This document shows positions 23,735 through 46,527 of a stretch of DNA of 64,000 nt, in pieces (the stretch's first letter is position 1; every line of letters begins with the position of its first letter). Source of the stretch: Fidelibacterota bacterium (GTDB taxonomy: Bacteria > Fidelibacterota > JAANXI01); the NCBI GenBank assembly GCA_021734025.1, contig JAIPJS010000005.1, forward strand, positions 2,112-66,111, read 5' to 3'. The position numbers and the translations under genes are program-made. The notes under the pieces were generated by a model. The model did no database searches. It was not told the DNA's origin and saw only the letters and a list, made by a program, of their open reading frames with translations.

Positions 23735-24262
23735 ATTTTATCTACCGGCATTCTTTCTTCTTTTGCCTTGATACAAAAGTGGAGAAAAAATCAAGGCTGC
23801 CAAATTAATTTCGGTATCGGCAGCAACGCCCTCCTTACCAGAACCAGAAACTCGTCCGGCAACTGCCGGACTCAAACAGCTGGTTCTGGCTTCACGTCGG
23901 ACGTTGGCCGACAGAGCGAAATTAATTTGAAGGCCGAAACTCAAAAGCAAAGAGATTCGTTTTTCGGTCTCGCCATTCCTTAAGTACGAACGACTGGTGC
24001 GATGAGGACAGGATAATTCGGCTGTCTGACGGAGTGGAGCGACGGAGTTCCGAATTATCCCCGAATCGCAGCGTAGTTGTTCTAGAAAGGAATGGCATAA
24101 CCGGATTTTTGCAGCACTTTTTCTAAAAAAGTGCGGAAGAAAAAGAAAGTTTATCTTTCGACATAGGTTAGTATTTATCAAAAACATTTACCTATTGTAC
24201 CAGTCACATCAATTTGTTTGTATTCCCCTTTTGCCTTGATATAAAAGTGGAGGTCGGAGTAA
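23735..24262. repeat. modular structured repeat, locus A (about 1.5 units, forward orientation)
   Basis: Contains the modules hairpin(CTTGAT loop)-AAAAAATCAAGGCTGCCA, cggtatcggca, the ccagaaccagaa...cagctggttctgg hairpin, gaaattaatttgaaggcc, ttttcggtctcgcca, and gatgaggacaggataat. A second unit then starts with the ggatttttgcagcactttttctaaaaaagtgcgga hairpin and ends in a second CTTGAT hairpin at 24225-24253. Confidence 0.7.
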
Positions 24263-24376: not shown

Positions 24377-26104
24377 ATGCCTCTTCCAAATCTCACACTC
24401 ACGAATTTTACCGGGGAAGTATCGTCAACTATCGTTGATAGAGGGCAGGACTATTTTTATCGCGATCTGGTAACTTCGCTTGAGGAATCGCTGGATGGTC
24501 AGTGGGTGGCGCAGGTCAGGGGTACCGCAACATATACCGTCGAAATATCACTTTCCAATGATGTGGTGGCGTCCTGGGCGTGCACCTGTCCTTATGATTA
24601 TGGACCAGTGTGCAAGCACGTGGTTGCAGTATTGATGGAGTTGAAGGAGGGGAAATCTGCGAAAGCCGATCCGGAGCAGAAAAAGCGGTCTACCAGAAAA
24701 TCACCGGAAAGGCGGTTTGATTCACTGGTCGACGACCTGCCGGTGGACGCGCTCCGGAAATTCCTCCGCGATTACGCGCAGTTTCATCCGGAGATGGAAC
24801 GGGAATTCCTGGCAAAATTTACCACTGCGGACGTCCCCGACGCCTGGCGGGATTACGTCGCCGTGATCCGGGAATCGGCGCGGGCAGGCTCCGACCGCCA
24901 TGGATTTATTAAATATTCGAACAGCTTCCGGGTTATGCAGCCGATCCATACGATGATTCAGCAGGCATACGAAAAATTGGAGTCCGCGGAATATCACGCC
25001 GCCTGGCACATCGCCCGCGCCGTAGTGCAGGAAGTGCCGAAACTCATCCAGCGGATGGATGATTCCAGTGGTGACGGCGGTTTTGTGACGAACAACGCCC
25101 TGGAGATCCTCCGGGAAGCCGGCACTGCCACCGAAGATGATGACTTACAGTCGGAGATTTTTCAGTTTTTGCTGAAAGAGTATCCAAAACAGCAGTATTC
25201 CGATTTTGGATTTGATGAGACTATCCTGTCTGTCCTGACAGCACTGATCAGGAATCCCCGGCAGGCTAAGCAGGTGGAGCGGCTCATCAAAGCACAGCTG
25301 GAAGCGGCGGAAAATGCGGAAGATGACTTTGGCTTCGATTACCGGTTTCAGCGAGCGCTGAAACATCAGATCGAATTCCTGGAGCAGACCGGCCGGGAGG
25401 ACGAAGCCGCCGATATTATCGATGCGCATCTGGACATCGAGGAGTTCCGGGAGCGGCGGATTCAGGAAGCATTTGATCAAGAGGATTTCGACACGGCAAA
25501 ATCACTGGTACGGGATGGGATTAAACTTATACGGGAGCAAAAGTATCCGCCTGGATACGAATATCGCTGGGAACAGTGGCTGTTCCGGATTGCCAAAGCG
25601 GAAGAGGACACGGAGAACATTCGTCAATATGCACGGTTCTTTTTCCTCCATCGACGGCAGGATATCTCCTGGTATAAGGAGCTCAGATCGACCTATACCG
25701 ATCAGGAATGGCGCCCAATTCTGGCGGATCTGATTGAGGAGATCCGTTCGAAATCATACTTCCCGGCCCGGGCGCTGGCGGAGGTCTATGCGTATGAACA
25801 TCACTGGGATGATTTGCTGCAATTGTTATCGGAGAACCCGGACCTTTCTCTGCTGAAGGAGTACGGCACTTATCTCAGGGAAGATTTTCCCGAAGACCTC
25901 CTCGCAATATACGGGGAGACCCTGCGCGCCTTTGCGGCGGAGTATACGGGGCGCAAGTATTACCGGGAGATTGTCAGGACGCTGAACAACATCCGGGACA
26001 TCTCCGGTGGCGCCGATTTCGTGCGGAACCTGGTGGCGGAATTCCGGGAAACCTATAATCGCCGCCCGGCGATGCAGGAGGAATTGGATAAGGTAAAGGC
26101 ATAG
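24377..26104 (+). CDS. SWIM zinc-finger domain protein
   Basis: WACTCPYDYGPVCKHVVAVL is the CxC...CxH SWIM signature. The remaining 500 aa is helical-repeat-like. Confidence 0.65.
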   Translation: MPLPNLTLTNFTGEVSSTIVDRGQDYFYRDLVTSLEESLDGQWVAQVRGTATYTVEISLSNDVVASWACTCPYDYGPVCKHVVAVLMELKEGKSAKADPEQKKRSTRKSPERRFDSLVDDLPVDALRKFLRDYAQFHPEMEREFLAKFTTADVPDAWRDYVAVIRESARAGSDRHGFIKYSNSFRVMQPIHTMIQQAYEKLESAEYHAAWHIARAVVQEVPKLIQRMDDSSGDGGFVTNNALEILREAGTATEDDDLQSEIFQFLLKEYPKQQYSDFGFDETILSVLTALIRNPRQAKQVERLIKAQLEAAENAEDDFGFDYRFQRALKHQIEFLEQTGREDEAADIIDAHLDIEEFRERRIQEAFDQEDFDTAKSLVRDGIKLIREQKYPPGYEYRWEQWLFRIAKAEEDTENIRQYARFFFLHRRQDISWYKELRSTYTDQEWRPILADLIEEIRSKSYFPARALAEVYAYEHHWDDLLQLLSENPDLSLLKEYGTYLREDFPEDLLAIYGETLRAFAAEYTGRKYYREIVRTLNNIRDISGGADFVRNLVAEFRETYNRRPAMQEELDKVKA

Positions 26105-26354
26105 TGAGCCGGCCTACGTCATTGTGACCCTGCCAGGGTCTTTCGTCATCAATTCCTTTGCTCACCACAGCATTGCCCAAATTAAACCCAAGAATACAAG
26201 CAAATTGCCAAAGCAAGTTTTTTACGGCATCTGAAATCGTATTGTAGAACTTCTGCCGCGATGTCGGCAGGGAGAATCAGCTGTTTGACCGAGTGAAACG
26301 AGGGAGTTCTGATTCTCCCAGACGAGCGGTGTAGCAGTTCTTAATAGGATTTCA

Positions 26355-26786
26355 GCAGCCGGATTTTTGCAGCACTTTTTCTAAAAAAGTGCGGAGAAAA
26401 AGAAATTTATCTTCCGATACAGGTTCGGATTTATAAAAAAGGTTAATCTGTTGTACGGTTATGCAATCACATTAATTTAGTTTTAAGCATCCCCGTTTTG
26501 TCTTGATACAAAACGGGGTAAAAAATCAAGGCTGCCACTACAATTTCGGTATCGGCACCCATTCCCTCCGGGCCAGAACCAGAACTCCCTGCGGTCAGAC
26601 AGCTGGTTCTGGCTGTCCTATGGTCATGGGCCGATAGAGCAAAATTGTAGTGGAGGCCGGAGTAAAAAACAACGGTGGCCAAAATTGAAAACGATGCCAA
26701 AACTAAAAAGTGAAGAGAAGCGTTGGTTTTATCGGTCTCGCCACTCCTTTGGTACGAACTACTGGTGCGATGAGGACAGGATAATA
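26355..26786. repeat. modular structured repeat, locus B (one complete unit, forward orientation)
   Basis: Module order is the gcagcac hairpin, then gttgtac..cacatc, the CTTGAT hairpin at 26491-26518 (perfect 11-bp stem), aaaaaatcaaggctgccac, the ccagaaccagaact..cagctggttctgg hairpin, caaaattgtagtggaggccgg, and gatgaggacaggataat. Confidence 0.7.
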
Positions 26787-27296
26787 TTAATGGCTCCAAT
26801 TCTTTTTAAGATTTTCAAACGCATGCAGCAGTTTTTCATTTCTGCGATAGTATAAATTGTGTTCGAAGACCTGTTCTAACTTTACAATGGCTTCATCTGT
26901 CGTTAGGGTGTTTTCCATTACCATCCGATCAAAAGCCCACAACAACCCATGTGTCTTTATCTTGTGCTTTCTTCCCATTTTACGCAAAACGCCATCGCTG
27001 GTTAGCAGCAATGCACTTTCCTTTTTAGCAAGAAACCAAACTGAGCGGTCGGCAATCGAAAGGGACATGGACAGGTTGAAGGGATCCGTTTCGTCAATAA
27101 AGTTCTCTTCGATTTCAACAATAGTGAGTTTTTCTTTTTCTACCCATGTGGATAAAAATTCACGTTGGTCTTGATCTAACTCCATCCACACCTGATATGA
27201 GGTAATAATATTATGGGGTAATTGGAAAAAGGCATTACAAGCATCGCACAGCAGCAAATCGATAAATATCGAAGCATCTGTGACGGCTAATTTCAT
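26787..27296 (-). CDS. DUF4411-like PIN-fold protein, the usual partner of an ImmA/IrrE metallopeptidase
   Basis: MKLAVTDASIFIDLL... N-terminus. It has a 1-nt gap or overlap with the upstream HTH-ImmA gene. The pairing is recognised from gene context. Confidence 0.5.
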   Translation of the reverse strand: MKLAVTDASIFIDLLLCDACNAFFQLPHNIITSYQVWMELDQDQREFLSTWVEKEKLTIVEIEENFIDETDPFNLSMSLSIADRSVWFLAKKESALLLTSDGVLRKMGRKHKIKTHGLLWAFDRMVMENTLTTDEAIVKLEQVFEHNLYYRRNEKLLHAFENLKKNWSH

Positions 27297-28352
27297 CTAT
27301 CCCAGGAGGAAGTTGTGACGGAATTCGTTTATCGGCTGATTCTTCAGTGCTGCGGCCTTCGAAATAGAGATATACTCCTCTGCCAGCGCCTGGCCGATTA
27401 ACTGATCGAATCGGAGAGCCTGTTCCTCTCCGGTGTATTCTGCCAGATCGGACTCATCCTGTCTCAGGTTATTGCTGTTGATAAATTTGTAAAAATCCCG
27501 GTAAGCCCCTTCACTCATAATCTCCAATTCCTTCAGCCGGGTCGCGATGGCTTGTATCGAGATCCCGTACTGTCGTTTCAGTGAAGCAAGTTCCTGTAAA
27601 GAAACTTTCTTCCGCTTTAAACCGAGTTCTGCTTCAACTGCCCGCTTATCCAGCAGCATCGCACCGGCAAAATGATGGCAAAGACTTTCCTGCTTCCGGT
27701 GATTCATGTGGTTAATATTCAAAAGGAGATGTCCGAGCTCGTGCATCGCATTGAACCGGTAGCGGTCAAGTGAACCTTTTTTCTCTTTATTCAGAACGAT
27801 AACCGGGACAGAGTTGTTAATCCAGGAAGAAAAACCATCGATCGAATCGTCGCCACTCAATTCGATTATTTTGATACCCCGATCTTCCAGCAATTCCAGA
27901 ACATTGTAGAGGGGATCGATGCCGAGATTCCATTGATCCCTCAATTGCTGCGCTGCGTTTTCGACATCCTTTTTATTGGTAATATTTTGTTCTTGTAGTG
28001 GATTTTTTACATGTGGCTGGGTACCGAGAATTTTTTCCAGCTCAAGATAGCGTTCCAGGAAATCACGTGCGGTTTCCACAATTCGGTTCTGTTCTTTTTT
28101 CTGGAGCCTTGACAGTTTTCTAAACGAAATCTCCTCGATTTCTACCGCATGATCCCGATAAAAGTAATCCGGTTTCAAATCCAAAGCATCTGCGATGTTT
28201 TGGATCATCACGTTGCCCGGTACGACCTGCCCTTTTTCATACTTGTGCAGCGCCTGCCTGCTGATTCTATTGTCGAGACGATCAGACAAGTCCTGCAACG
28301 AAAATCCCCGCATAAGACGCGCATGTTTTAAACGCTGTGCAAGTTGTGGCAT
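27297..28352 (-). CDS. XRE-family HTH fused to ImmA/IrrE (COG2856) zinc metallopeptidase domain
   Basis: N-terminal HTH (LKHARLMRGFSLQDLSDRLDNRISRQALHKYEKG). HEXXH motif HELGHLLLN within a DUF955-like region. Confidence 0.75.
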   Translation of the reverse strand: MPQLAQRLKHARLMRGFSLQDLSDRLDNRISRQALHKYEKGQVVPGNVMIQNIADALDLKPDYFYRDHAVEIEEISFRKLSRLQKKEQNRIVETARDFLERYLELEKILGTQPHVKNPLQEQNITNKKDVENAAQQLRDQWNLGIDPLYNVLELLEDRGIKIIELSGDDSIDGFSSWINNSVPVIVLNKEKKGSLDRYRFNAMHELGHLLLNINHMNHRKQESLCHHFAGAMLLDKRAVEAELGLKRKKVSLQELASLKRQYGISIQAIATRLKELEIMSEGAYRDFYKFINSNNLRQDESDLAEYTGEEQALRFDQLIGQALAEEYISISKAAALKNQPINEFRHNFLLG

Positions 28353-28438
28353 TTTTACCTCCCAATCTTGTTGACAAGATAGATTAGTAATAGTAGTTTG
28401 TCAACCAAAGAAAGAACAATGTAAGGAGGTGATTAACC

Positions 28439-28612
28439 ATGGCGACAAATGGCAAGTCCGGCGATAACCGTCGGCATGGTGCCGTTCGCAACCGCTCCCA
28501 GATTAAAAATCCGGTAAACGGCTTGTACATTAAACGCAACAGAAAAACCGGCCGGTTTATGGACGTGAAAACCAGCGGTGGCAGATTTAAAGGCGTCCGC
28601 CGGGAGAAGTGA
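28439..28612 (+). CDS. small highly basic protein (57 aa), divergent from the XRE/ImmA gene
   Basis: Near-consensus RBS AAGGAGGTGA 7 nt upstream of the ATG. MATNGKSGDNRRHGAVRNRSQIKNPVNGLYIKRNRKTGRFMDVKTSGGRFKGVRREK. It is not in the ORF track because it is under 60 aa. Confidence 0.4.
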   Translation: MATNGKSGDNRRHGAVRNRSQIKNPVNGLYIKRNRKTGRFMDVKTSGGRFKGVRREK

Positions 28613-28689
28613 GCGATGCGAGTCAAAAAGACCTTGACAGGTGTCCGGGACCCTGCCAGGGTCTATCGGCATCAATCATTCCAATTTGA

Positions 28690-29465
28690 CTTTATTCCCC
28701 CTTTTGCCTTGATGCAAAAGGGGGCGAAAAAATCAAGGCTGCCACTACAATTTCGGTATCGGCACCCATTCCCTCCGGGCCAGAACCAGAACTCGGTCAT
28801 TGCATTCTCTCAAACAGATAATACTGGCTTTACGTCGGACGTTGGCCGACAGAGCGAAATTAATTTGAAGGCCAAGTTCCAAAAGCACGAGAGTCGGTTT
28901 TTCGGTCTCGCCATGCTTGAGCCCCAGTTCCGGCGTCTACCTTTCGACAAGCTCAGCTCCGGAAGGAGCCTCTTCCGAGGGATGACGCCTCTAGGAGTCA
29001 CTCTGAGCCTGTCGAAGAGTGGCAAACTCTTTGTCTATCGAATGTGAGGAATTTCCCAAATTGGAGTGAAAGATAAATTCATGAATTATTCAGGTTAGGT
29101 TTTCATAAAAACGTTTATCGATTGTATCGGGAAGCAATTATATCAATTTGACTTTATTACCCGTTTTGTCTTGATACAAAACGGGTAGAAAAAATCAAGG
29201 CTGCCACGACAATTTCGGTATCGGCACCCATTCCCTCCGGGCCAGAACCAGAACTCCCTTCGGTCAGACAGCTGGTTCTGACGATCCTCCAGTCATGGGC
29301 CGATAAAGCAAAATTGTAGTGGAGGCCGGATGAACAAAACAGTATACAATCTGAAAAATATCAGTAGTACACAAAATTGAAAGCGAGGCCAATACCTTAA
29401 AGCAAAGGGAATAATACTGTAGTTTATCTGTTGTACTTCAGTCACATCTTGGTAATATTACACCC
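28690..29465. repeat. modular structured repeat, locus C (two partial units, forward orientation)
   Basis: CTTGAT hairpins at 28696-28724 (stem cccccttttgc/gcaaaaggggg) and 29160-29185 (stem cccgttttgt/acaaaacggg). Each is followed by aaaaaatcaaggctgccac..cggtatcggcacccattccctccgggccagaaccagaact. The locus ends with ctgtagtttatctgttgtacttcagtcacatc. Confidence 0.7.
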
Positions 29466-29529
29466 GTAAACCGAGTCCTAAATATGGTACTTGGTAAAGT
29501 ACCATTTTAAACGATGACGCTCACTTAAA

Positions 29530-29952
29530 ATGACCGACGTTCACGAGCCGGAAGTCCGCAGTTACAATATGAGCCGGATTCGGGGTAAGGATACTAAACC
29601 CGAAATGCTGGTTCGGAAGTTTTTGCATTCCTACGGTTTTCGTTACCGGTTACACGTGAACAATTTGCCTGGAAAACCGGATCTGGTTTTACCAAAATAT
29701 AACACCGCGATATTTGTTCACGGCTGCTTCTGGCATGCGCACGAAGGATGTGAGTACTTCAAAATTCCGCAAACCCGAACGGAATTTTGGAAAGAAAAAT
29801 TATTCGGTAACAGAGAAAGGGACGAGGAAAACATTTCTGAACTCCGGAAAATGGAGTGGAACGTTATCGTGGTTTGGGAGTGTGAGTTAAAATCAGAGGA
29901 AAAGGAAGTGAAACTTCAGGAAATTGCAAATAAGGTTGAAGAAAATAAATGA
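29530..29952 (+). CDS. vsr: very-short-patch repair endonuclease
   Basis: MSRIRGKDTKPE...FVHGCFWHAH.GC...TEFW..K...N..RD...L...GW.V..VWECE are classic Vsr motifs. Confidence 0.85.
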   Translation: MTDVHEPEVRSYNMSRIRGKDTKPEMLVRKFLHSYGFRYRLHVNNLPGKPDLVLPKYNTAIFVHGCFWHAHEGCEYFKIPQTRTEFWKEKLFGNRERDEENISELRKMEWNVIVVWECELKSEEKEVKLQEIANKVEENK

Positions 29953-30386
29953 GCATACCTGTTATTGACATTTTTGCCGGCCCTGGAGGCTTAGGAGAAG
30001 GATTTAGTTCCGTTATGAATGAAGAGGGAGAACGGTTTTTTAATACAGTCCTCTCTATTGAAATGGATGAGTATGCTCACGAAACGTTAGAGTTACGAAG
30101 TTTTTTCCGCCAGTTTGCGCCCGGCAAGGCTCCTGAAGAGTATTACAAGTTTTTACGGCAGGAAATCGATAAAGAAGAATTATTTAAGTCTTGGCCTGAG
30201 CAGGAAGAAAAAGCAAAAAATGAAGCTTGGAATATCAAGCTTGGATTTGATGAAAGTTCAGTAACCCCAGATGAAGTCGATCGAAGGATAAGGGTTGCAT
30301 TAAACAATGAAAAAAAATGGGTTTTGATCGGTGGCCCTCGTTGCCAAGAAAAGCCTATGCCGACTCTCAATGGCCAAAATCTGTGA
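29949..30386 (+). pseudogene. remnant of a DNA (cytosine-5)-methyltransferase (motifs I-IV only)
   Basis: Motif I FAGPGGLGEGF. Motif IV is degenerate (GGPRCQ instead of GGPPCQ) and is followed by unrelated residues, with a stop after 145 aa. No downstream frame continues an MTase. It overlaps the vsr stop (ATGA). The intact paralogous dcm starts 450 bp further on. Confidence 0.6.
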
Positions 30387-30835
30387 TTTTGTTCCTATTG
30401 AGTTATCGGTAAAACTCGCTACACTCAGAAAATCTTTAAAAAGTTATTAGTTCTGAGTCTGATTTTTATTATCATATTAAGGAGACTTTCGAAGGGTTTT
30501 CTCAAATAATTGTATCGATCAAAATTCGAATTGTGCCCAGTGGTGATGAAATTTGTCGCTGGATCGATGATAACCTGAATTCGGCAAAGATTCCAAGAGA
30601 AGTAATACTCGAGGATATAGGTGATGGACTCAATTCCTTTGGCGTACACTTTAAAAACTATGACCCCAAAGCCAGGTTCGCCGATAAAGAAAAAGTGAAG
30701 AGGTTGTCGAGGTTGGTGTAGGAGGGATGATGAGAAACCATATACTATCCTGAAAATTCTTATTTTATAAATGACTAAGTTTGTTCATTTTAGAGAAAGT
30801 TAAACAACTAATTTATTTCAGAATAGCTTAAATTA

Positions 30836-32041
30836 ATGAAATACATAGATTTATTTGCGGGTGCCGGCGGTCTTTCTGAAGGTTTTTACAGGGAAGGATT
30901 TGAAGCTGTGGCTCATATTGAAAAAGATCACCATGCTTGCCAGACTATTAAAACCCGGACTGCCTTTCATTATTTAAAGCAGGAAAATCATATCTCTGAA
31001 TATATTCGTTATCTGAACCAAGAAATAACAAGAGAAGAATTCTATGATTTAATACCTGATGAAATACTTGATACGGTAATTGACGCTGAAATATCGGAAG
31101 AGACCTTAGAAGACCTTTTCAATTTAATTGACCAGAAGCTTGAGGATGAAGAACTTGATTTAATAATTGGTGGCCCTCCTTGCCAGGCATACTCTAGTGC
31201 CTCCGCTTATATTGAAGAAAAAAACGAAAAATTAATTTATTTATATGAATTATATGGTGAATTCCTTGATCACTTTACTCCAAAGATGTTCATCTTTGAA
31301 AATGTACCTGGAATTTATACGGCAGATGAAGGAAAATATTATGAAGGGCTGAAAGAATGCTTTAAAAATGCGGGCTATGAATTTGAAGATAAAAAATTGG
31401 ATGCTTCTGAATTTAACGTACCACAGAAGAGAGAACGGGTAATCATAATTGGTTGGAGAGAAAACTTAGATTTATCATATCCTGAATTTGAAAAGAAAAT
31501 ACCCGATACAAAGATTGACGAATTATTTAATGATTTACCAGACCTTGAACCAGGCAAGTCTTACGATCCGGGAAATCACTACACACAAGGAGGATCTGAG
31601 TATGTTAATACCTATATCCGAAACGGAATAGATGTATTGACACACCACATTGCCCGCCCTCATAATGAAAGAGATTTGAATATTTACAGAATGGCTATAG
31701 AAAGATGGGAAGGAGGTGCGAGGTTAAAGAATTCAGATATTCCTGAAGAGATGAGAACTCAAAAAAATATCTCATCTTTTTTGGATCGTTTTAAAGTAGT
31801 TGATGGTGAAGGTTTTTCTCATACTATGATAGCTCATATCGCCAAAGATGGTCATTACTACATTCATCCGGATCAGAAGCAATTACGCTCTATTTCAGTT
31901 AGGGAAGCGGCCAGAATTCAGTCTTTTCCAGACGATTACTTTTTTGAAGGACCTCGAACTTCTGTATTTACTCAAATTGGCAATGCTGTGCCACCAATTC
32001 TTGCACAAGAAATAGCACGCAAAATAAAAAGGGTCCTTTGA
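30836..32041 (+). CDS. dcm: DNA (cytosine-5)-methyltransferase
   Basis: Motif I DLFAGAGGLSEGF, motif IV GGPPCQAYSSAS, motif VI ENVPG, and motif X QIGNAVPPILAQ. Confidence 0.85.
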   Translation: MKYIDLFAGAGGLSEGFYREGFEAVAHIEKDHHACQTIKTRTAFHYLKQENHISEYIRYLNQEITREEFYDLIPDEILDTVIDAEISEETLEDLFNLIDQKLEDEELDLIIGGPPCQAYSSASAYIEEKNEKLIYLYELYGEFLDHFTPKMFIFENVPGIYTADEGKYYEGLKECFKNAGYEFEDKKLDASEFNVPQKRERVIIIGWRENLDLSYPEFEKKIPDTKIDELFNDLPDLEPGKSYDPGNHYTQGGSEYVNTYIRNGIDVLTHHIARPHNERDLNIYRMAIERWEGGARLKNSDIPEEMRTQKNISSFLDRFKVVDGEGFSHTMIAHIAKDGHYYIHPDQKQLRSISVREAARIQSFPDDYFFEGPRTSVFTQIGNAVPPILAQEIARKIKRVL

Positions 32042-34401
32042 TGACTAATTATAAAGAGATATCAACTTATTCTTTTACTCCAGGGGCAATGTCAATTATT
32101 CAGATGGGCGAAGAACTCATTGGGCAACCCAATACTGCTATTAATGAATTAGTAAAAAACGCCTATGATGCCGACGCAAAGAATTGCGAAGTTTATTTTC
32201 ACAGTGCTGAATCAAAAGAATCATCCTTTACTCTAATTTTTGATGATGGAAATGGGATGGATGAGTCTATTCTATTTGGTGATTGGCTTAAGCCTTCTGT
32301 AAGTGATAAACGAAAGGAGGGGGTTAAAAGTCCTGTATATGGAAGAAATTTATTGGGTAGTAAAGGAATTGGCAGACTTGCTTCTATGGCCCTGGGCAGG
32401 CTTGTTACTGTTATTTCAAGACAAAATCCTTCGGATGATTATAACTGGATAACAGTAGACAGGGAATTATTTAAGGAGGAAGCTTTACTTAAGGATATCA
32501 AATTTCCAGGCTCAAGCATTGAGAACTACCTAGATTTATTTAGAGATGAGGAGTTACTAGAAATTAGAAACTCTTATGAAAATGATGAGCTTTTTGAGGT
32601 TCTGAAAAAAAATGACCTTGATCATTTTGAGAAAGGCACATTAATATTGATTGAGGAGTTTGATGAAGCGGTAGTTAAAATTCTCAGGAAAGATTTTCTC
32701 GAAAGTAACGAGAAATTAAATGAGCACTCTCTGAAGAGTACCAATTTCTATAAGTCTTTAGCCACACTTATTACTCCGATAACTTTAAGTTCGGAAATCC
32801 AGGATGAATTATTAGAAAGAGAAATAATTGATGCGAAGAAAATCATTGCATCAAAAGATGATTCATTTGAAATAAGTTTTGGAATCAATTTGCTCCCTGA
32901 TCAGGAAAAATCTGAAATAGAATGGCAGGATATAGACCCAATTCCAATACTTGATGTTTTTGATTACAGGGTCTTTGGTAAAGTTACTGGCGAAGGTGAT
33001 GTTGATGGATATCTTGGCTTCAACAGACTTGAAAAAGATGGCCATGAAATAACTTTTTCAATTTCTCGGAATGAAATTAAAGATAAAAGCTTACGCGGTA
33101 AGGATCAGCCGACATTATTTGATAATGAAAGTGATTCTGAAAATGAAATGGAGACAGGCGAATATTACTTTGACTTCCGAGTATATGATATGGGAGAATC
33201 TGATAATCGGGCAAAACTATCTGAAAAAGCTGGGTTCGAAAATATAAATACCTTTAGAAGTACTTTTAAAGAATTTCAAGGGCTTAGGGTTTCAAAAAAT
33301 GGATTTGGTGTAAAGCCATATGGGGAAGAGGTCGAAGACTGGATAGGTTTATCTAAAGCGAGAGTTCAGAATCCAGGTCAAAATGTTAATACCAATCAGA
33401 TTATTGGTTATGTCTTTTTCTATTCCCCGGAAAATGATCAGATTGAAGAAAAGACTAACAGAGAAGGTTTTCTTGAAAACACAGCTTTCATTCAGGTTAA
33501 GGAAACTTTAAAAGTTATTTTCAAAAACCTAGGACGTAAAAGGTATAACTATCGATTAAAGCATGGTCTTGGCAGGGTGCCTTCCAGTAAACATAAAAGA
33601 CCTAACATAGATAAGTTTCTAAAGTCTATTGAATCCAGTAAAAATGTAGATCAGGCCAGAAAAAAATCAGAAAAATTTGTCAAAGAGATTACGACTTCTT
33701 TGGATAATTTAGAAGAGGCATTAACATTTTCAGAACGATTAGCATCTCTTGGTAGCGGAATAGAACTGGTGTATCATGAGATGGTACAGCCTATTTCAAC
33801 TTTGAGAACTACGAAATCTTCCTTAGATCTAAAGAAAGAGAAAATTGCTGAGGCGGTTAAAGAGATCTTCCTCAACGATATAAATTCATTGAATAGTGCA
33901 ACTGATGTATTAGCAGAGTTAAGAAATTCTCTTCAACCTGCAATAGGGAGAACAAGAACTAAAAAATTCAAACCTGTTGATACCTTTTTGCGGGTATGCA
34001 CCTTATTTAAAACGGATTTTGAGGATGCAGAAATTAGTATAAATCTTATTGGAGAAACTGAAAATTTTACTCTGAAAGATTATGAATACCCCTTCTGGAT
34101 AGCTTTCCTGAATATTTTAAATAATGCCGTTTATTGGATAAAAAGGTCGGAGGAACCAGGAACTATTTATTTTCAAATAGACAATGGAAACATAATAGTA
34201 GGTAATACAGGACCGCTTATATCAGAAGATATTATAGAAGATATTTTTGAATATGGTGTCACAACCAGAAAAGAGAAAAATGCAACCGGATTAGGCCTTT
34301 CTTACACGCAAAGTATTCTCAGTAAAAATGATTGGGACATAACAGCTGAGAATCGAAAAAATGGACCGGTATTTATAATAAAAAAGCAAGAAAGTGAATA
34401 A
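32038..34401 (+). CDS. fusion protein: N-terminal MORC/Hsp90/MutL-like GHKL ATPase domain, about 380 aa of unknown middle region, C-terminal histidine-kinase core (HisKA H-box plus HATPase_c)
   Basis: N-terminal N-box ELVKNAYDADA, G1 FDDGNGM, G2 GSKGIGRLAS. C-terminal H-box ELVYHEMVQPISTL, N-box FLNILNNAVYW, G1 QIDNGN, F IFEYGVT, G2 GLGLSYTQSIL. The start overlaps the dcm stop (ATGA). Confidence 0.6.
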   Translation: MMTNYKEISTYSFTPGAMSIIQMGEELIGQPNTAINELVKNAYDADAKNCEVYFHSAESKESSFTLIFDDGNGMDESILFGDWLKPSVSDKRKEGVKSPVYGRNLLGSKGIGRLASMALGRLVTVISRQNPSDDYNWITVDRELFKEEALLKDIKFPGSSIENYLDLFRDEELLEIRNSYENDELFEVLKKNDLDHFEKGTLILIEEFDEAVVKILRKDFLESNEKLNEHSLKSTNFYKSLATLITPITLSSEIQDELLEREIIDAKKIIASKDDSFEISFGINLLPDQEKSEIEWQDIDPIPILDVFDYRVFGKVTGEGDVDGYLGFNRLEKDGHEITFSISRNEIKDKSLRGKDQPTLFDNESDSENEMETGEYYFDFRVYDMGESDNRAKLSEKAGFENINTFRSTFKEFQGLRVSKNGFGVKPYGEEVEDWIGLSKARVQNPGQNVNTNQIIGYVFFYSPENDQIEEKTNREGFLENTAFIQVKETLKVIFKNLGRKRYNYRLKHGLGRVPSSKHKRPNIDKFLKSIESSKNVDQARKKSEKFVKEITTSLDNLEEALTFSERLASLGSGIELVYHEMVQPISTLRTTKSSLDLKKEKIAEAVKEIFLNDINSLNSATDVLAELRNSLQPAIGRTRTKKFKPVDTFLRVCTLFKTDFEDAEISINLIGETENFTLKDYEYPFWIAFLNILNNAVYWIKRSEEPGTIYFQIDNGNIIVGNTGPLISEDIIEDIFEYGVTTRKEKNATGLGLSYTQSILSKNDWDITAENRKNGPVFIIKKQESE

Positions 34402-35521
34402 TTTGGGTACAATAATTCATTTAGACAACGATGAAAAAATTCTTCAAGATTTTAAAGGGCTATTCGATCAGTCCGGTATTAATCTTGATTTAGTCACTTG
34501 CCAAACAAAAGATGAATTTTATAAGCTTATTGAAGAGCATAAAAATTCTCTAAAGGCATTGGTCTTTGACTTATTAAGTTCTGAGCCCGGTAAAGAAGAA
34601 CTACACAAAGGTGATGCAGAATTTCTGGACTCTGTAGAGGATAGTTTTTCTACGGTTAGTATTCCTATTTTCATTTACAGCGGGTTTTTAGAAGCTATTG
34701 AGGAACAATTTGAAACCCATGGAACTGTGTTTAAAATTGATAAAGCAAATGGGCCAGACGAAATACTCAGGCTGATCAAGCTTTTTGATGAATCTGGATT
34801 TTTAGACGTATTTAGCCCGGGTGGAAAAATTGAAAAAGATTTTCATAATGAATTAAATAAATCTTTTATATCTCAATTCACAAATAACAAGCAAATAGAA
34901 GAAATAATTAACACTGTTGCTGAAGAGGATGTCAAAGAATCTAAAGAAAGGGTTGAAAAGGTCTTTAAGAGAATTGCCTTAAGGTCACTTTTAACCGTGC
35001 TTCAGTTATCAGAAAATGAAGGAGATGAGGAATACCTTAATCCGGTTGAGCACTATGTGAAAAGAATTAATGATCAAAAGATTGTAACTGGAGATATCTT
35101 TTTTAGCCAAGAAAAAAACGAGCATTTATTAGTAATGACACCCAGATGTGACCTTGCTAATAAAGATCCTCAAGAAATTTTAGTATGTAATATTGATACA
35201 GAAAAATTTCCAGATAAGACGACAAGTAACACTCAGAAAGGTAAAATTCTTAATGCTATTACTGATAATCCTGAATATTCAGGTTATGACAGATACTTAG
35301 TTAGGTCCCCTTTTTTTGTTGGCGGCTTAATAAAAATTGGATCTTATTCAATGATAGCAAAGGAAGAATTACTGTCTAGTTACGATCTTCAGATAACATT
35401 AAGTGATGAACTTACAAATGAAATACTGGGTAAATTTGGATCTTATTTTTTCCGTACTGGAATTACAACATGGGATCTTGACGAAACTGTAAAATTCATA
35501 GAGTCGATAAAGGAAGATTAA
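34394..35521 (+). CDS. receiver (REC) domain protein with about 250-aa C-terminal domain of unknown function
   Basis: GTG start overlapping the kinase stop. IIHLDNDE (beta1 acidic pair), ALVFDLL (putative phospho-acceptor Asp near residue 59), IPIFIYSG (Ser/Thr position), and VFKIDK (Lys position) match a CheY-like spacing. I recognised nothing in the C-terminal region. Confidence 0.5.
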   Translation: MNNLGTIIHLDNDEKILQDFKGLFDQSGINLDLVTCQTKDEFYKLIEEHKNSLKALVFDLLSSEPGKEELHKGDAEFLDSVEDSFSTVSIPIFIYSGFLEAIEEQFETHGTVFKIDKANGPDEILRLIKLFDESGFLDVFSPGGKIEKDFHNELNKSFISQFTNNKQIEEIINTVAEEDVKESKERVEKVFKRIALRSLLTVLQLSENEGDEEYLNPVEHYVKRINDQKIVTGDIFFSQEKNEHLLVMTPRCDLANKDPQEILVCNIDTEKFPDKTTSNTQKGKILNAITDNPEYSGYDRYLVRSPFFVGGLIKIGSYSMIAKEELLSSYDLQITLSDELTNEILGKFGSYFFRTGITTWDLDETVKFIESIKED

Positions 35522-35523
35522 AA

Positions 35524-36228
35524 TTGACCTTCAAAAACTGGCTCATATCTACTGGACGAAAACCAATTTCAGCAAAGAAATATGAAAGTGCCGTATACGG
35601 ATCAATTTCTGGTTGGGCAGAAGAGGCTGGAATAGTAAAGTCAAACCTAATTGATGTCAATGATCCTGAAGAGTTTGAATCACTTTCCAATAGGATTAAA
35701 GAACTTGAGATTTTTCTGGAAAGAAATACTGATGGACATCAGATGTACAGCGCTGCATTAAACAGGTACTCAGAATACCTGATAGCTATCCAAAATGAAA
35801 TTGAAGAGGATATAGACAAAGTATCAAATGATGATTCTGTTTCTGAAACTGAAAAAGACAGTCTTATTAAATCCCGTCTGGGTCAGGGCGTTTTCAGAAA
35901 AAGTCTGATGGATTACTGGCAGAGATGTGCAGTAACCGGCTATCAATCCTCTAAATTATTAGTCGCTTCACACATTAAACCATGGAGAAGTTCCGATAAC
36001 AAAGAGCGTATGGATGTGTTCAACGGCCTGTTATTGATTCCAAATCTTGATAAAGCTTTTGATAAAGGCTTCATATCTTTCAAAAAGAATGGTAGCATTA
36101 TAATTTCAGAGTTTTTCCAAAAACCGGCTTCATTGGGAATAAAATCTGATTTAAATCTTAAGATTTCTAATAGGCACCAACCATATCTTGAATACCACCG
36201 TGATATAGTATTTCTGCAAGCTAATTAA
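35524..36228 (+). CDS. HNH endonuclease (HNH_2-type) with N-terminal domain of unknown function
   Basis: TTG start 2 nt after the REC gene stop. C-terminal CAVTGYQSSKLLVASHIKPW...NGLLLIPNLDKAFDKGFISF is the HNH_2 signature. Confidence 0.65.
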   Translation: MTFKNWLISTGRKPISAKKYESAVYGSISGWAEEAGIVKSNLIDVNDPEEFESLSNRIKELEIFLERNTDGHQMYSAALNRYSEYLIAIQNEIEEDIDKVSNDDSVSETEKDSLIKSRLGQGVFRKSLMDYWQRCAVTGYQSSKLLVASHIKPWRSSDNKERMDVFNGLLLIPNLDKAFDKGFISFKKNGSIIISEFFQKPASLGIKSDLNLKISNRHQPYLEYHRDIVFLQAN

Positions 36229-36317
36229 TCAGTTCATTTAGAAGATTTACTACAGAAGATGAAATTACGATAGTTATTGATCAGATATATCGTTTGTACA
36301 ATTAAATTTTAGTTTAA

Positions 36318-36378
36318 TCCGTGGTTATCTGCTGTTTCTGCGATCCGCCGAAGGCGGACAGCGTGCTATTTGTTTTTT
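36318..36378 (-). ncRNA. conserved 3' UTR element with covarying hairpin (copy 1, immediately after rsgA stop)
   Basis: The minus strand reads AAUAGCACGCUGU-CCGCCUUCGGCGG-AUCGCAGAAACAGCAGAUAACCACGGAUU. The copy at 44398-44460 has the same flanks, but the hairpin is replaced by CCCCGACAAAUCGGGG. Confidence 0.4.
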
Positions 36379-36379
36379 C

Positions 36380-37459
36380 TCACCGCAACTTCTTCCGGTG
36401 CTTCTTCATCTCCTTCACATCCTTATAGATCTGTTTCCAGTACTCCTCGCGCTCGCGGCGGGCCGCTTCGTCCTGTTTGGATTCCAGGTAATCTAATTCC
36501 TTCTGGAGTTTCAGGTAATTCTCGTAGTGCGACTCCGGAATCTCGCCGGACTCCACCGCTGCCAGCACCGCACACTCCACCTCGTGCGTATGCGTGCAGT
36601 CATTGAATTTGCACTCTGCCGCCAGATCCAGGATGTCGTCGTACACCTCCTCCATCCCCCCGCCGGACCACAGTTGAAACTCCCGCATCCCCGGCGTATC
36701 GATAATCAGTCCGCCATCCGGCACCAGGATCAGTTCCCGCCGGGTCGTGGTGTGGAGCCCCTTGGAGTCGAACTCGCGCACCTCCTGGGTCTTCTGGCGC
36801 TCCTCACCGAGCAGCGCATTGATAATCGTCGACTTGCCCACGCCCGACGATCCCACCAGCGCAATCGTCTCGCCCGGCTGAATCGCAGATGCCAGTTCGT
36901 CGATTCCGTTGCCCGTTTTAGCACTCACCACAAACAACGGCACCGTCCCAGCGATGTCCTGAGCTGCGTCTTTCTTATCCGATAAATCTTCAGCCAGGTC
37001 CGATTTGTTCAGTATGATGCCCGGCTGAGCGCCGCTCTCCCGGATCATCACCAGGTAGCGCTCCAGGCGATTCGGACTGAAGTCGCCGTCCAGACTCTGC
37101 ACCACATACACGTGATCCAGGTTTGCGCCGATGATTTGTAATTCCGTCCGTTTCCCCGAGGCTCTGCGGGTAAACGTTGTCTGTCGCGGCAGGATGTCGT
37201 GGATGATGGCTTTGCCCTCGTCACCCATCACGGAGATCGCCACCCAATCGCCAACCTTGGGATAATCCGCCGCCGATTCTGCCGAATAAATGAGCCGGCC
37301 AGTGATCTGCGCATCCAATTCCCCGTCTGCTGACATTACCAGATAATTATCCCGATTCTCGATTGCAATTCGTCCCGGCTCAAATCCCCGGGATTCGAAC
37401 TCCGCGAATTCGGAGGCGAAAAAGTCGTTCCAGCCCAACTGTTCCAATGAATAGCCCAT
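36380..37459 (-). CDS. rsgA: ribosome small-subunit-dependent GTPase A
   Basis: GLV..D..PG.R, VGSSGVGKSTIINALLG, and the zinc-finger CKFNDCTHTHEVECAV. Confidence 0.85.
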   Translation of the reverse strand: MGYSLEQLGWNDFFASEFAEFESRGFEPGRIAIENRDNYLVMSADGELDAQITGRLIYSAESAADYPKVGDWVAISVMGDEGKAIIHDILPRQTTFTRRASGKRTELQIIGANLDHVYVVQSLDGDFSPNRLERYLVMIRESGAQPGIILNKSDLAEDLSDKKDAAQDIAGTVPLFVVSAKTGNGIDELASAIQPGETIALVGSSGVGKSTIINALLGEERQKTQEVREFDSKGLHTTTRRELILVPDGGLIIDTPGMREFQLWSGGGMEEVYDDILDLAAECKFNDCTHTHEVECAVLAAVESGEIPESHYENYLKLQKELDYLESKQDEAARREREEYWKQIYKDVKEMKKHRKKLR

Positions 37460-40831: not shown

Positions 40832-40959
40832 GTTATGTGACCTCCGTGATTTTCATTTTGGTGCTCCGAAAATTTGTGGTAAAAAATACCGAGATTTTTC
40901 CTGTAGGGCAAACTGCAAACTACATGAAATTGATTTCAAAACAGCATCTATTTTTTGGT

Positions 40960-44291: not shown

Positions 44292-44397
44292 CCGGATTAA
44301 GAGTAAGAGTATAATTAGGATTAAGAGACCCCGTGAAAATTAGGGCATTACCCATTATACCTTATACCCTATATCATATTTTCCTTCCTGTCTGAAA

Positions 44398-44460
44398 TCC
44401 GCGGTTATCCGTTGTTTCTGCGATCCCCGATTTGTCGGGGACAGCGTGCTATTCGTTTTC
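44398..44460 (-). ncRNA. conserved 3' UTR element with covarying hairpin (copy 2, overlapping pcm stop)
   Basis: See the 36318-36378 feature. It has identical flanks and a different but still self-complementary stem. Confidence 0.4.
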
Positions 44461-46515: not shown

Positions 46516-46527
46516 GGAAAGAAAAAA

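What the first reader, a model, noticed from the sequence alone, without database searches (positions are those of the whole stretch)
26200..36330. AT-rich accessory island bounded by structured repeats and a conserved 3' element
Sequence from about 29.5 to 36.3 kb is visibly AT-richer, with an A/T-rich codon choice (many AAA, GAA, ATT), than the flanking GC-balanced backbone genes such as SWIM, rsgA and the heme genes. The island carries only accessory functions: DUF4411/ImmA/XRE, vsr, a dcm remnant, and the dcm-HK-REC-HNH operon. Repeat units at 26.4 and 28.7-29.5 kb sit on its left. The covarying 3' element at 36318-36378 sits on its right. This is the signature of a horizontally acquired defence island.
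Basis: partly seen in the sequence, partly recalled or inferred. Interest (0 to 1): 0.6.

Follow-up and report, generated by a model that had tools for sequence, protein, structure and literature searches.

The report
Mosaic AT-rich defence island with two-component restriction cassette
A roughly 9.5-kb stretch between two housekeeping genes of a Marinimicrobia genome is foreign DNA made of three defence-type modules, the largest being a little-studied methylase, kinase, response-regulator and nuclease cassette that moves between bacterial phyla.

Summary
Window 30.4-36.3 kb has GC 0.33-0.36 against a backbone of 0.50 (GC z -7 to -9, tetranucleotide z 12-18, GC3 0.25-0.31 vs 0.55-0.73). The 26.1-30.4 kb part is intermediate.

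Two close relatives (rsgA 90% and 93% identical) lack the island. In one (L004) SWIM and rsgA lie about 1.9 kb apart and the gap holds a different AT-rich cargo, two HNH_2 nucleases. The other (L043) shows that same cargo after rsgA before its contig ends. The slot (about 26790-36296) is therefore a variable defence hotspot.

The island is a mosaic of three parts:
- an XRE-HTH/M78 "RmrA"-like gene, a PIN-like gene and a 57-aa PDC-S38 gene
- vsr plus a truncated dcm
- an intact, tightly packed dcm / GHKL-histidine-kinase / receiver-domain protein / HNH_2 cassette

This cassette keeps GC 0.32-0.35 in Balneolota and Bacteroidota hosts of GC 0.36-0.49. It matches the two-component-like, restriction-modification-associated module described computationally in 2021. 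New here: the response-regulator-like protein's C-terminal domain is predicted to adopt a MazF/Kid toxin fold.

The left-hand repeats are real and covary, but they are a genome-wide dispersed family. The 3' element belongs to rsgA, not the island. No integrase or att site was found.

The parts
26126..26153 (+). Terminator-like hairpin (GACCCTGCCAGGGTC plus tail) just after the SWIM stop. A 26/28-identical copy lies at 28649-28676.
   Evidence: 2 matches, 0 expected by chance
26247..26789 (.). Dispersed structured repeat, copy A. It has an 11-bp-stem hairpin at 26492-26517, a roughly 130-nt imperfect palindrome at 26530-26658 and a tail at 26706-26789. The tail is also present next to SWIM in relative L004. 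Cargo DNA starts right after this tail.
26787..27296 (-). 169-aa PIN-like protein, the putative toxin partner of the XRE/M78 gene.
   Evidence: Pfam PIN E=0.015 only; PADLOC PDC-S70 6.6e-07; GC3 0.44
27297..28352 (-). 351-aa XRE-HTH + M78 (ImmA/IrrE) peptidase, like the RosmerTA antitoxin RmrA.
   Evidence: Pfam Peptidase_M78 1.8e-11 and HTH_3 5.7e-10; PADLOC RmrA 6.5e-54; NCBIfam spr1629 antitoxin 5.7e-42, below its cut-off
28439..28612 (+). 57-aa basic protein with a strong ribosome-binding site, transcribed divergently from the RmrA-like gene.
   Evidence: PADLOC PDC-S38, full length, 7.4e-30; sequence
28649..28914 (.). Second copy of the terminator-like hairpin, followed by repeat copy B. 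Copy B is chimeric: its 5' half is A-type and its 3' half is of the 23.7-kb type.
29088..29430 (.). Repeat copy C, 84-90% identical to copy A.
29530..29952 (+). vsr (very-short-patch repair endonuclease). It is 75% nt-identical to the vsr of the Fodinibius-like cassette, where that gene lies downstream of HNH on the opposite strand.
29949..30386 (+). Truncated dcm. It keeps the N-terminal 145 aa with motif I and a mutated GGPRCQ, and only 450 nt separate it from the next gene. It is 34% identical to the N-terminus of the neighbouring dcm, so it is the remnant of a different methylase.
30836..32041 (+). Intact C5 cytosine methyltransferase (401 aa), the first gene of the cassette.
   Evidence: Pfam DNA_methylase 6.6e-59; PADLOC DrmMII-type 2.2e-158; same length as homologues
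32038..34401 (+). 787-aa HK-like protein. The N-terminal MORC/paraMORC-type GHKL ATPase keeps invariant E37, N41, D69xGxG and GSKGIG. The C-terminal class-I histidine-kinase core keeps invariant H580-E581, an N-box (N692/N695/N696) and a G2 box (TGLGL).
34394..35521 (+). 375-aa RR-like protein. The N-terminal receiver domain (residues about 1-130) has invariant D59 and K117 and nearly invariant S96. A helical linker follows, then a C-terminal beta-domain (about 205-375) with a predicted MazF/Kid-like fold.
35524..36228 (+). 234-aa HNH_2 nuclease, the last gene of the cassette.
   Evidence: Pfam HNH_2 5.8e-13; PADLOC HNH 5.4e-28; 80% nt identity to the Fodinibius cassette HNH
36297..36379 (-). 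Backbone rsgA 3' element and the right edge of the variable slot. It contains a hairpin with one compensatory change between copies and the motif GCAGAAACAnCnGATAACCnCGGAT. It is not part of the island.

Best explanation
Window about 26790-36296 is a mosaic, horizontally acquired defence island. It sits in a variable slot between the convergent 3' ends of the backbone genes SWIM and rsgA in a Marinimicrobia genome.

It holds three modules, probably acquired at different times.

(a) A toxin-antitoxin-type module: an XRE-HTH/M78-peptidase antitoxin-repressor resembling RosmerTA RmrA, a PIN-like toxin candidate, and a small PDC-S38 gene. Its composition is partly like the host's, and the host's own dispersed repeats have colonised it.

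(b) vsr plus a decapitated dcm, which is debris of an earlier methylase cassette.

(c) An intact, translationally coupled cassette of dcm, a GHKL-ATPase/histidine-kinase fusion, a receiver-domain protein and an HNH_2 nuclease. It has GC 0.345, and its closest named relatives are in Balneolota and Bacteroidota.

Inferred mechanism of cassette (c); the steps below are not shown:
1. Dcm marks host DNA, and Vsr repairs the T:G mismatches left by 5mC deamination.
2. The MORC-like N-terminal GHKL module of the kinase senses unmodified invading DNA or a related infection signal.
3. This drives autophosphorylation at H580.
4. The phosphoryl group passes to D59 of the receiver protein.
5. Phosphorylation releases or activates the receiver protein's MazF-fold C-terminal effector, giving growth arrest or RNA cleavage. 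It may also license the HNH nuclease to cut DNA.

Shown: composition, absence from relatives, gene families, conserved catalytic residues, conserved gene order, and fold predictions.
For: Composition.

Synteny:
- L004 (rsgA 90% identical) aligns to the window up to 36297 on one side and from 26094 on the other, with only about 1.9 kb between. That stretch has GC 0.36 and encodes two HNH_2 / type-IV-like nucleases.
- L043 (rsgA 93% identical) carries the same cargo after rsgA, up to its contig end.

Cassette mobility:
- Gene order dcm, HK, RR, with HNH and Vsr in most loci, recurs in Fodinibius, Elizabethkingia and metagenomic Balneolaceae-like contigs. The Pedobacter locus has Vsr, dcm, HK and RR but no HNH.
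- Identity is 73-80% nt to Fodinibius-type loci, and the homology starts exactly at the dcm ATG.
- Cassette GC is 0.32-0.35 in hosts whose flanks are 0.36-0.49.
- Neighbouring genes in those hosts are defence genes: SymE, Fic, Eco47II, SRA-HNH, GmrSD.

Kinase:
- The profile matches ThkA (9.6e-16) and HK853 (3e-07) over the DHp and catalytic domains, and MORC3 (7.7e-05) over the N-terminus.
- H580, E581, the N-box and the G2 box are invariant.

Receiver protein:
- AF2 mean pLDDT is 84. Foldseek hits receiver domains with TM 0.6-0.78 normalised to the target.
- D59 and K117 are invariant and S96 nearly invariant.
- Distant relatives reach 26-29 bits on Pfam Response_reg.

Effector:
- The C-terminal model has pLDDT 88, and all top 50 PDB hits are MazF/Kid/PemK toxins (TM 0.61-0.75 normalised to the target, probability 1.00).
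- The Pedobacter locus has dcm, HK and RR but no HNH, which suggests RR carries its own effector.

The system class has been described in the literature (PMC8011034).
Against: - No integrase, transposase, tRNA or clear att duplication lies in or next to the slot, so the route of insertion is unknown.
- Only two close relatives were available, and one contig ends 1.2 kb past rsgA.
- Neither cassette protein reaches the Pfam models named in the 2021 paper. HEF_HK scores 13.6 bits against a 24.1 cut-off, and Response_reg_2 gives no hit in 61 family members tested.
- The similarity to MazF is at fold level only. There is no Pfam PemK hit, and hhalign against E. coli MazF (a sequence recalled from memory) gives 0.2% probability. 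No catalytic residues were mapped.
- The kinase G1 box reads NxGP rather than DxGxG.
- No experiment shows defence, phosphotransfer or toxicity for this system class, and none was found in the literature searches.
Confidence: 0.8

Rival explanations
1. The region is the degraded remnant of an integrated mobile element (a prophage or an ICE/IME). The XRE-M78 gene would be its ImmR/ImmA-type immunity switch, and the integrase would be lost or outside the slot.
For: XRE-HTH + M78 peptidase pairs are typical immunity regulators of prophages and ICEs (established knowledge). The module is flanked by direct repeats: 26126-26153 with 28649-28676, and repeat copies A, B and C.
Against: No integrase, recombinase, relaxase or phage structural gene lies between SWIM and rsgA. 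The flanking repeats belong to a family dispersed across the window. The cassette's homology with other genomes is limited to its own coding sequence.
Confidence: 0.1
2. The dcm/HK/RR/HNH cassette is not an immune system. It would be a selfish or regulatory epigenetic module, in which the two-component pair only tunes expression or activity of an ordinary type II restriction-modification pair (dcm + HNH), and the RR C-terminal domain is a non-catalytic adaptor.
For: The 2021 authors speculated that the pair controls R-M systems. RR has no sequence similarity to MazF or conserved MazF catalytic residues. HNH_2 is a frequent type II/IV nuclease domain.
Against: RR has no DNA-binding output domain. 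The RR C-terminal domain carries about 20 invariant residues, including E219, R224, T232-G233-D234, P250-R251-C252, N342, R354 and E364, which suggests catalysis or tight binding. Some loci lack HNH.
Confidence: 0.2
3. The structured repeats are recombination sites, att-like or attC-like, that capture cassettes one after another. The island would then be an integron-like array.
For: A repeat or repeat remnant lies to the left of each module: copy A, copies B and C, and a weak remnant at 30680-30757. The repeat tail abuts the cargo in both the window and L004. Copy B is a chimera of two repeat subtypes, which indicates recombination between copies. The repeats have strongly conserved structure.
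Against: No integron integrase or other recombinase is nearby. The same repeats lie in ordinary intergenic regions elsewhere. The relatives lack them except for the tail. The remnant at 30.7 kb is only marginally significant (score 29 against a shuffle maximum of 27). Modules are in mixed orientations.
Confidence: 0.08
4. The low GC is native, caused by local mutational or selective bias, and the region was lost in relatives rather than gained here.
For: Only two relatives were compared. Their slot is AT-rich too.
Against: The relatives' cargo is unrelated in sequence. The cassette has its closest homologues in other phyla at 59-83% protein identity and keeps GC about 0.34 whatever the host GC. 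GC3 differs by 0.3-0.45 from adjacent genes.
Confidence: 0.03

Closest known systems
Two-component-like, R-M-associated HK-like/RR-like module (Bellieny-Rabelo, Pretorius & Moleleki 2021, Genome Biol Evol; Pfam HEF_HK PF19191 and Response_reg_2 PF19192)
   Same: The soluble kinase has the architecture HATPase_c_3, then DHp with His-Glu, then HATPase_c. The adjacent downstream protein has a REC-like N-terminus and no other recognised domain. A C5 methylase lies upstream. HNH_2 and Vsr are frequent neighbours, including in Bacteroidota (searches compared).
   Different: The window proteins and their relatives tested here do not reach the two Pfam models. The paper assigns no fold or function to the RR C-terminus, whereas here it is predicted to be MazF/Kid-like. 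The host phylum, Marinimicrobia, is not among those named in the Results and Discussion sections read here.
Detocs (defensive two-component system, DtcABC). This comparison rests on my own knowledge of Rousset et al. 2023, not on anything checked here.
   Same: Works alike in principle: a cytoplasmic histidine kinase senses infection and phosphorylates a receiver domain fused to a toxic effector.
   Different: There is no buffer receiver protein (DtcB), no TPR sensor and no PNP effector. No Detocs protein is among the PADLOC hits to the cassette proteins. This cassette is coupled to a DNA methylase, Vsr and HNH, meaning self/non-self marking.
paraMORC / GHKL-type restriction enzymes (Iyer, Abhiman & Aravind 2008; BbrUII/HgiDII family)
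   Same: An N-terminal HATPase_c_3 module with intact ATPase motifs, next to an m5C methylase (NCBIfam BbrUII/HgiDII 2.3e-16 and PADLOC REase_II 2.3e-13 over residues 11-134).
   Different: Only the N-terminal roughly 130 residues match. The rest is a histidine-kinase core rather than a nuclease. The score is far below the family cut-off (59.5 against 550 bits).
RosmerTA (RmrT/RmrA) and other COG2856-Xre toxin-antitoxin pairs
   Same: The 351-aa XRE-HTH + M78 protein matches 14 PADLOC RmrA models (best 6.5e-54). A small putative toxin gene abuts it in the same operon.
   Different: The partner is PIN-like (PDC-S70) and matches no RmrT model. The NCBIfam spr1629 antitoxin score of 144 is below its cut-off of 335.
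MazF/Kid/PemK endoribonuclease toxins (CcdB/MazF superfamily)
   Same: Predicted fold of RR residues about 205-375: TM 0.61-0.75 normalised to the target over 120-140 columns, with all top 50 PDB hits in this family.
   Different: No sequence-profile similarity. The domain is fused to a receiver domain instead of being paired with an antitoxin. It carries extra helices. Catalytic equivalence is untested.

Membership tests
Genomic (defence) island | Composition deviates from the host genome | tested here: met
   GC z -7 to -9, tetranucleotide z 12-18, GC3 0.25-0.31 vs 0.54-0.73
Genomic (defence) island | Absent or different in close relatives at a conserved chromosomal slot | tested here: met
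   L004 and L043 carry unrelated HNH cargo after rsgA. In L004 the SWIM-to-rsgA slot is 1.9 kb, against 10.2 kb here.
Genomic (defence) island | Cargo made mainly of defence or accessory genes | tested here: met
   PADLOC/Pfam hits: RmrA, PDC-S70, PDC-S38, Vsr, MTase, HNH
Genomic (defence) island | Mobility signature: integrase or recombinase, tRNA target, att direct repeats | tested here: not met
   No such gene among the ORFs of the slot. No tRNA in the window. The only flanking repeats belong to a dispersed family.
HK-like/RR-like R-M-associated two-component-like module (PMC8011034) | Kinase architecture HATPase_c_3 + DHp (His-Glu) + HATPase_c, soluble | tested here: met
   Pfam hits at residues 31-149 and 689-781; invariant H580-E581; PDB profile hits to HK cores and MORC3
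HK-like/RR-like R-M-associated two-component-like module (PMC8011034) | Match to Pfam HEF_HK (PF19191) above its gathering score | tested here: not met
   13.6 bits against 24.1; 0 of 27 relatives hit at E<=0.01
HK-like/RR-like R-M-associated two-component-like module (PMC8011034) | Match to Pfam Response_reg_2 (PF19192) | tested here: not met
   No hit for the window protein at E<=10, for 51 relatives or for 10 distant relatives. I did not verify that the model is present in the library copy.
HK-like/RR-like R-M-associated two-component-like module (PMC8011034) | Adjacent RR-like gene with REC residues (acidic pair, Asp, Thr/Ser, Lys), C5 methylase upstream, HNH_2 and Vsr nearby | tested here: met
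   HLDND motif, invariant D59 and K117, nearly invariant S96; gene order
Classical two-component phosphorelay | Catalytically competent HK boxes (H, N, G1, G2) and the phospho-acceptor Asp | tested here: inconclusive
   H, N and G2 boxes and D59 are invariant. G1 reads N723-x-G725-P726 instead of DxGxG.
Classical two-component phosphorelay | Phosphotransfer from His to Asp | not testable with these tools
   Needs biochemistry
MazF/Kid/PemK (CcdB/MazF superfamily) | SH3-like barrel fold of the toxin | tested here: met
MazF/Kid/PemK (CcdB/MazF superfamily) | Sequence-profile membership (Pfam PemK_toxin) and conserved catalytic Arg/Thr | tested here: not met
   No Pfam hit at E<=10. hhalign gives 0.2% probability against E. 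coli MazF, a sequence recalled from memory.
RosmerTA | RmrA antitoxin (HTH + M78 peptidase) | tested here: met
   14 PADLOC RmrA models, best 6.5e-54
RosmerTA | Cognate RmrT toxin | tested here: not met
   The neighbouring 169-aa protein hits only PDC-S70 and weak PIN
Integron | IntI integrase, attI, and attC-bounded co-oriented cassettes | tested here: not met
   No recombinase found. Modules are in mixed orientation. The repeats are about 180-500 nt and dispersed genome-wide.

The most novel reading that the evidence does not exclude
The dcm/HK/RR/HNH cassette is a distinct, experimentally uncharacterised immune system. A MORC-like GHKL DNA sensor is wired through a genuine His-to-Asp phosphorelay to a MazF-fold toxin domain and an HNH nuclease, with cytosine methylation as the self mark. 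It would be a hybrid of restriction-modification, two-component signalling and toxin-antitoxin logic. A secondary, less likely possibility is that the covarying dispersed repeats next to each module are recombination sites that build such islands.
Probability: 0.35. Interest if true: 0.7.

Novelty: new member of a known kind. Interest (0 to 1): 0.4.

Why it matters
As a genomic island the finding is ordinary.

Its value lies in the cargo. It provides a clean, intact, recently transferred copy of a two-component-like restriction module that has been described only computationally (PMC8011034). My literature searches found no experimental test of it.

The predicted MazF-fold output domain gives that module a concrete, testable effector hypothesis: phosphorylation-gated toxicity coupled to methylation-based self-recognition.

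The SWIM/rsgA slot also gives a defined defence hotspot in Marinimicrobia, a largely uncultured marine phylum.

Tried and rejected
- Rfam. A gathering-threshold scan of the whole window found only Acido-Lenti-1. An E<=1 scan of 26.0-29.6 kb found nothing credible for the repeats.
- tRNA or tmRNA as an integration target: none in the window.
- Exact-protein look-ups returned only the same genome, with no island-free strain.
- Sequence-level link of the RR C-terminus to MazF: none by Pfam, by a PDB profile search, or by hhalign against a MazF sequence recalled from memory.
- The sigma-70 promoter and terminator scan of the island gave counts no higher than shuffled sequence.
- The 450-nt gap between the dcm remnant and dcm holds no convincing gene.
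- A repeat remnant at 30680-30757 is only marginally above chance, so it carries little weight.
- The island HNH is not orthologous to the relatives' HNH cargo: 34% identity over the nuclease domain only.
- Supplementary tables of PMC8011034 are not held, so I could not check whether specific homologues are in the authors' orthologous groups.

Full report
**1. Observation**

The 1-kb GC profile drops from about 0.50 to 0.33-0.38 between 30.0 and 36.3 kb and rebounds to 0.49-0.57 at rsgA. I compared 2-kb windows with 101 backbone windows (GC 0.499 +/- 0.019).
- The 30-36 kb windows have GC z-scores of -7 to -9.
- Their tetranucleotide-distance z-scores are 12-18, while the largest backbone value is 4.8.
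- GC3 is 0.27, 0.27, 0.25 and 0.31 for dcm, HK, RR and HNH. It is 0.63 for SWIM and 0.73 for rsgA.
- The left part (26.1-30.4 kb) is only moderately deviant (GC 0.43-0.46).

The composition claim is real and far beyond chance. It applies fully only to the right-hand 5.9 kb.

**2. Genes**

HMM scans gave the following.

| Coordinates (strand) | Product | Evidence |
|---|---|---|
| 24377-26104 (+) | SWIM, backbone | Pfam SWIM |
| 26787-27296 (-) | 169-aa PIN-like protein | PIN E=0.015; PADLOC PDC-S70 6.6e-07; Pfam DUF4411 not detected |
| 27297-28352 (-) | XRE-HTH + Peptidase_M78 | PADLOC RmrA 6.5e-54 |
| 28439-28612 (+) | 57-aa basic protein | Full-length match to PADLOC PDC-S38, 7.4e-30 |
| 29530-29952 (+) | Vsr | Pfam 1.5e-32 |
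| 29949-30386 (+) | 145-aa dcm fragment | Ends 12 codons after a mutated GGPRCQ; 34% identical to the next dcm |
| 30836-32041 (+) | dcm | Pfam 6.6e-59 |
| 32038-34401 (+) | 787-aa GHKL + HK protein | HATPase_c_3 and HATPase_c |
| 34394-35521 (+) | 375-aa protein | No Pfam hit |
| 35524-36228 (+) | HNH_2 | Pfam 5.8e-13 |
| 36380-37459 (-) | rsgA, backbone | Pfam RsgA_GTPase |

The four cassette genes overlap or abut each other by 2-8 nt, which fits a single operon. ORFs 26467-26799 (-) and 28616-29047 (+) overlap repeats and are probably spurious.

**3. Is it an island?**

- A GTDB genome scan with RsgA found one close relative, L004. It is a Candidatus Neomarinimicrobiota MAG from Suakin Deep, with RsgA 90% identical.
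- BLASTN shows colinearity on the rsgA side up to window 36297. It resumes at window 26094-25944, the SWIM 3' end. Only about 1.9 kb lies between these in L004, against 10.2 kb here.
- That 1.9 kb has GC 0.36 and encodes two HNH_2 nucleases (PADLOC HNH 1.6e-90; type IV methyl-directed REase 3.4e-15). They are unrelated to the window cargo.
- A metagenome scan found a second relative, L043 (RsgA 93% identical), with the L004-type cargo after rsgA.
- Exact-protein look-ups found only the same genome in two Logan assemblies.

Thus the slot between the convergent 3' ends of SWIM and rsgA carries different AT-rich defence cargo in sister lineages. It is a defence hotspot. The junctions are about 26790, just after an ~80-nt repeat tail that L004 also has next to SWIM, and about 36296.

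**4. Origin of the main cassette**

- Homologues of the 375-aa and 787-aa proteins co-occur, mostly in Bacteroidota and Balneolota: Fodinibius, Pedobacter, Psychroserpens, Elizabethkingia, Ulvibacterium and others. Protein identity is 59-69% to Fodinibius and up to 83-90% to unnamed metagenomic contigs.
- Gene neighbourhoods show the same order: dcm, HK, RR, with or without HNH_2 and Vsr. They often sit among other defence genes such as SymE, Fic, Eco47II, SRA-HNH and GmrSD.
- Nucleotide homology to Fodinibius-type loci is 68-80%. It begins exactly at the dcm start codon and ends 12 nt after the HNH stop.
- The window's vsr is 75% identical to the vsr of those cassettes, but there that gene lies downstream of HNH on the opposite strand. 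So the window copy is rearranged.
- Cassette GC is 0.32-0.35 in every host, while flanks range from 0.36 to 0.49.

This is direct evidence that the cassette moves between phyla. The vsr-dcm' pair looks like debris of an earlier or recombined cassette. Overall the island is a mosaic of at least three acquisitions.

**5. What the cassette is**

Kinase:
- A profile of 27 kinase homologues matches solved histidine kinases across the DHp and catalytic domains: ThkA 9.6e-16 and HK853 3e-07.
- It matches MORC3 and MORC2 across the N-terminus (7.7e-05).
- Invariant residues include E37, N41, D69xGxG and GSKGIG of the N-terminal GHKL ATPase.
- In the kinase core, H580-E581 (H-box), N692/N695/N696 (N-box) and T750-GLGL (G2) are invariant. 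G1 reads NxGP.

375-aa protein:
- AlphaFold2 with 51 homologues gives mean pLDDT 84.
- Its N-terminal (beta-alpha)5 domain matches receiver domains (TM 0.6-0.78 normalised to the target).
- It carries an HLDND motif. D59 and K117 are invariant and S96 nearly so, at the canonical positions.
- Distant family members score 26-29 bits on Pfam Response_reg, just under the 30.2 cut-off. An Enterobacter plasmid homologue aligns over the full length (hhalign 98.2%).

A literature search found that this architecture was described computationally in 2021 (PMC8011034). That paper reports a soluble HATPase_c_3 + DHp + HATPase_c 'HK-like' protein and an adjacent 'RR-like' protein. The two showed 91.6% linkage, with an upstream C5 methylase and frequent HNH_2 and Vsr. 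The system was proposed to be a two-component-like system related to paraMORCs.

The Pfam models from that work do not capture this clade. HEF_HK scores 13.6 bits against a cut-off of 24.1. Response_reg_2 gives no hit in 61 members tested. I therefore file it as the same kind of system on architecture and context, not on model membership. I found no experimental study.

**6. New point: the output domain**

- A separate model of RR residues 140-375 has pLDDT 88. Searched against the PDB, all 50 best hits are MazF/Kid/PemK toxins (TM 0.61-0.75 normalised to the target, 120-140 aligned columns, probability 1.00). The full-length model also retrieves MazF.
- The domain has about 20 invariant residues, including E219, R224, TGD232-234, PRC250-252, N342, R354 and E364.
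- The family comprises 653 clusters at 50% identity, and in the 150 best-scoring representatives the full-length members share the same two-domain layout.
- The Pedobacter locus has dcm, HK and RR but no HNH. This argues that RR carries an effector of its own.

**7. Proposed mechanism (inference)**

1. Dcm marks self DNA, and Vsr limits mutagenesis from 5mC deamination.
2. The MORC-like GHKL head of the kinase engages unmethylated foreign DNA.
3. ATP-dependent dimerisation drives autophosphorylation at H580.
4. The phosphoryl group is transferred to D59 of RR.
5. The MazF-fold domain is released or activated, giving RNA cleavage or growth arrest. HNH may also be licensed to cut DNA.

The logic resembles Detocs (my own knowledge) but adds methylation-based self-marking. 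I put about 0.35-0.45 on this chain being broadly right.

**8. The repeats and the 3' element**

Repeats:
- The left-hand repeats are copies of a dispersed family. Further copies lie at 23.74-24.26, 40.95-41.35, 41.5 and 45.3-46.5 kb.
- Each copy has an 11-bp-stem hairpin (CCCSTTTTGY-CTTGAT-RCAAAASGGG) and a long imperfect palindrome of about 130 nt.
- Seven copies give 89% paired cells. Seventeen of 40 pairs carry compensatory changes, against 1-3 in slid controls and 0 of 500 shuffles.
- Both strands fold equally well (z -4.2 and -4.8), and no Rfam family matches.
- Copy B is a chimera of two subtypes, which implies recombination between copies.
- In the sequence available, the relatives lack these repeats except for the tail next to SWIM.

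The repeats are therefore real and structured, but they are a property of the host genome that has colonised the older part of the island. They are not island-specific boundaries. An att-like role cannot be excluded, but I rate it at about 0.08.

3' element:
- The element at 36317-36376 is the conserved tail of rsgA. It is present after rsgA in L004 and again at 44.4 kb. It lies outside the island.

**9. Verdict**

The finding is correct and its interpretation is supported. As an island it is ordinary. Its cargo is a well-preserved example of an uncharacterised two-component restriction-like module, now with a testable effector hypothesis.

Noticed in passing
window 23740-24260, 26247-26789, 28677-28914, 29088-29430, 40950-41350, 41518-41576, 45300-46530: A dispersed family of structured repeats. 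Each has a hairpin followed by an imperfect palindrome of about 130 nt. Covariation is strong: 17 of 40 pairs are compensatory in 7 copies. No Rfam match. In the sequence available, the close relatives lack them except for an ~80-nt tail. They could be a MITE/REP-like element or an unknown ncRNA family.
   Followed up: partly
window 39881-39926 (-): Acido-Lenti-1 RNA (RF01687), 49.4 bits against a gathering score of 37. It lies upstream of the 470-aa gene region. The host here is Marinimicrobia, not one of the two phyla in the family's name.
   Followed up: no
window 36317-36376 (-) and 44397-44459 (-); L004 11081-11155: A conserved 3'-of-gene motif: a hairpin with one compensatory change, then GCAGAAACAnCnGATAACCnCGGAT. 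It follows rsgA and another minus-strand gene, and is conserved after rsgA in a relative. It may be a terminator or a 3'UTR element.
   Followed up: partly
window 28439-28612 (+): A 57-aa basic ORF with a strong ribosome-binding site. It matches PADLOC candidate PDC-S38 over its full length (7.4e-30). Its composition is host-like (GC3 0.62) even though it lies inside the island.
   Followed up: partly
window 24377-26104 (+): The backbone SWIM protein hits PADLOC candidate PDC-S62 (8.6e-17) and, weakly, DpdE. The gene flanking the hotspot may itself be defence-related.
   Followed up: no
window 26126-26153 and 28649-28676: A 28-nt terminator-like hairpin is duplicated (26/28 identical), once after SWIM and once after the PDC-S38 gene. 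The two copies bracket the RmrA/PIN module together with repeat copy A. This may be a trace of the recombination that placed the module there.
   Followed up: partly
L004 11290-12925; L043 9090-10281: The relatives' version of the slot holds two tandem HNH_2 nucleases. One has a type IV methyl-directed REase-like N-terminus (PADLOC mREase_IV 3.4e-15). GC is 0.36.
   Followed up: partly
plasmid hits H1-H15 (Campylobacter conjugative plasmids); L038 (Enterobacter mori plasmid); L039 (Bacillus sp. H8-1 plasmid): Distant full-length homologues of the GHKL-HK protein (25% identity) sit on about 50-kb Campylobacter plasmids. HK+RR pairs occur on Enterobacter and Bacillus plasmids, the latter next to an integrase and a dcm.
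   Followed up: partly
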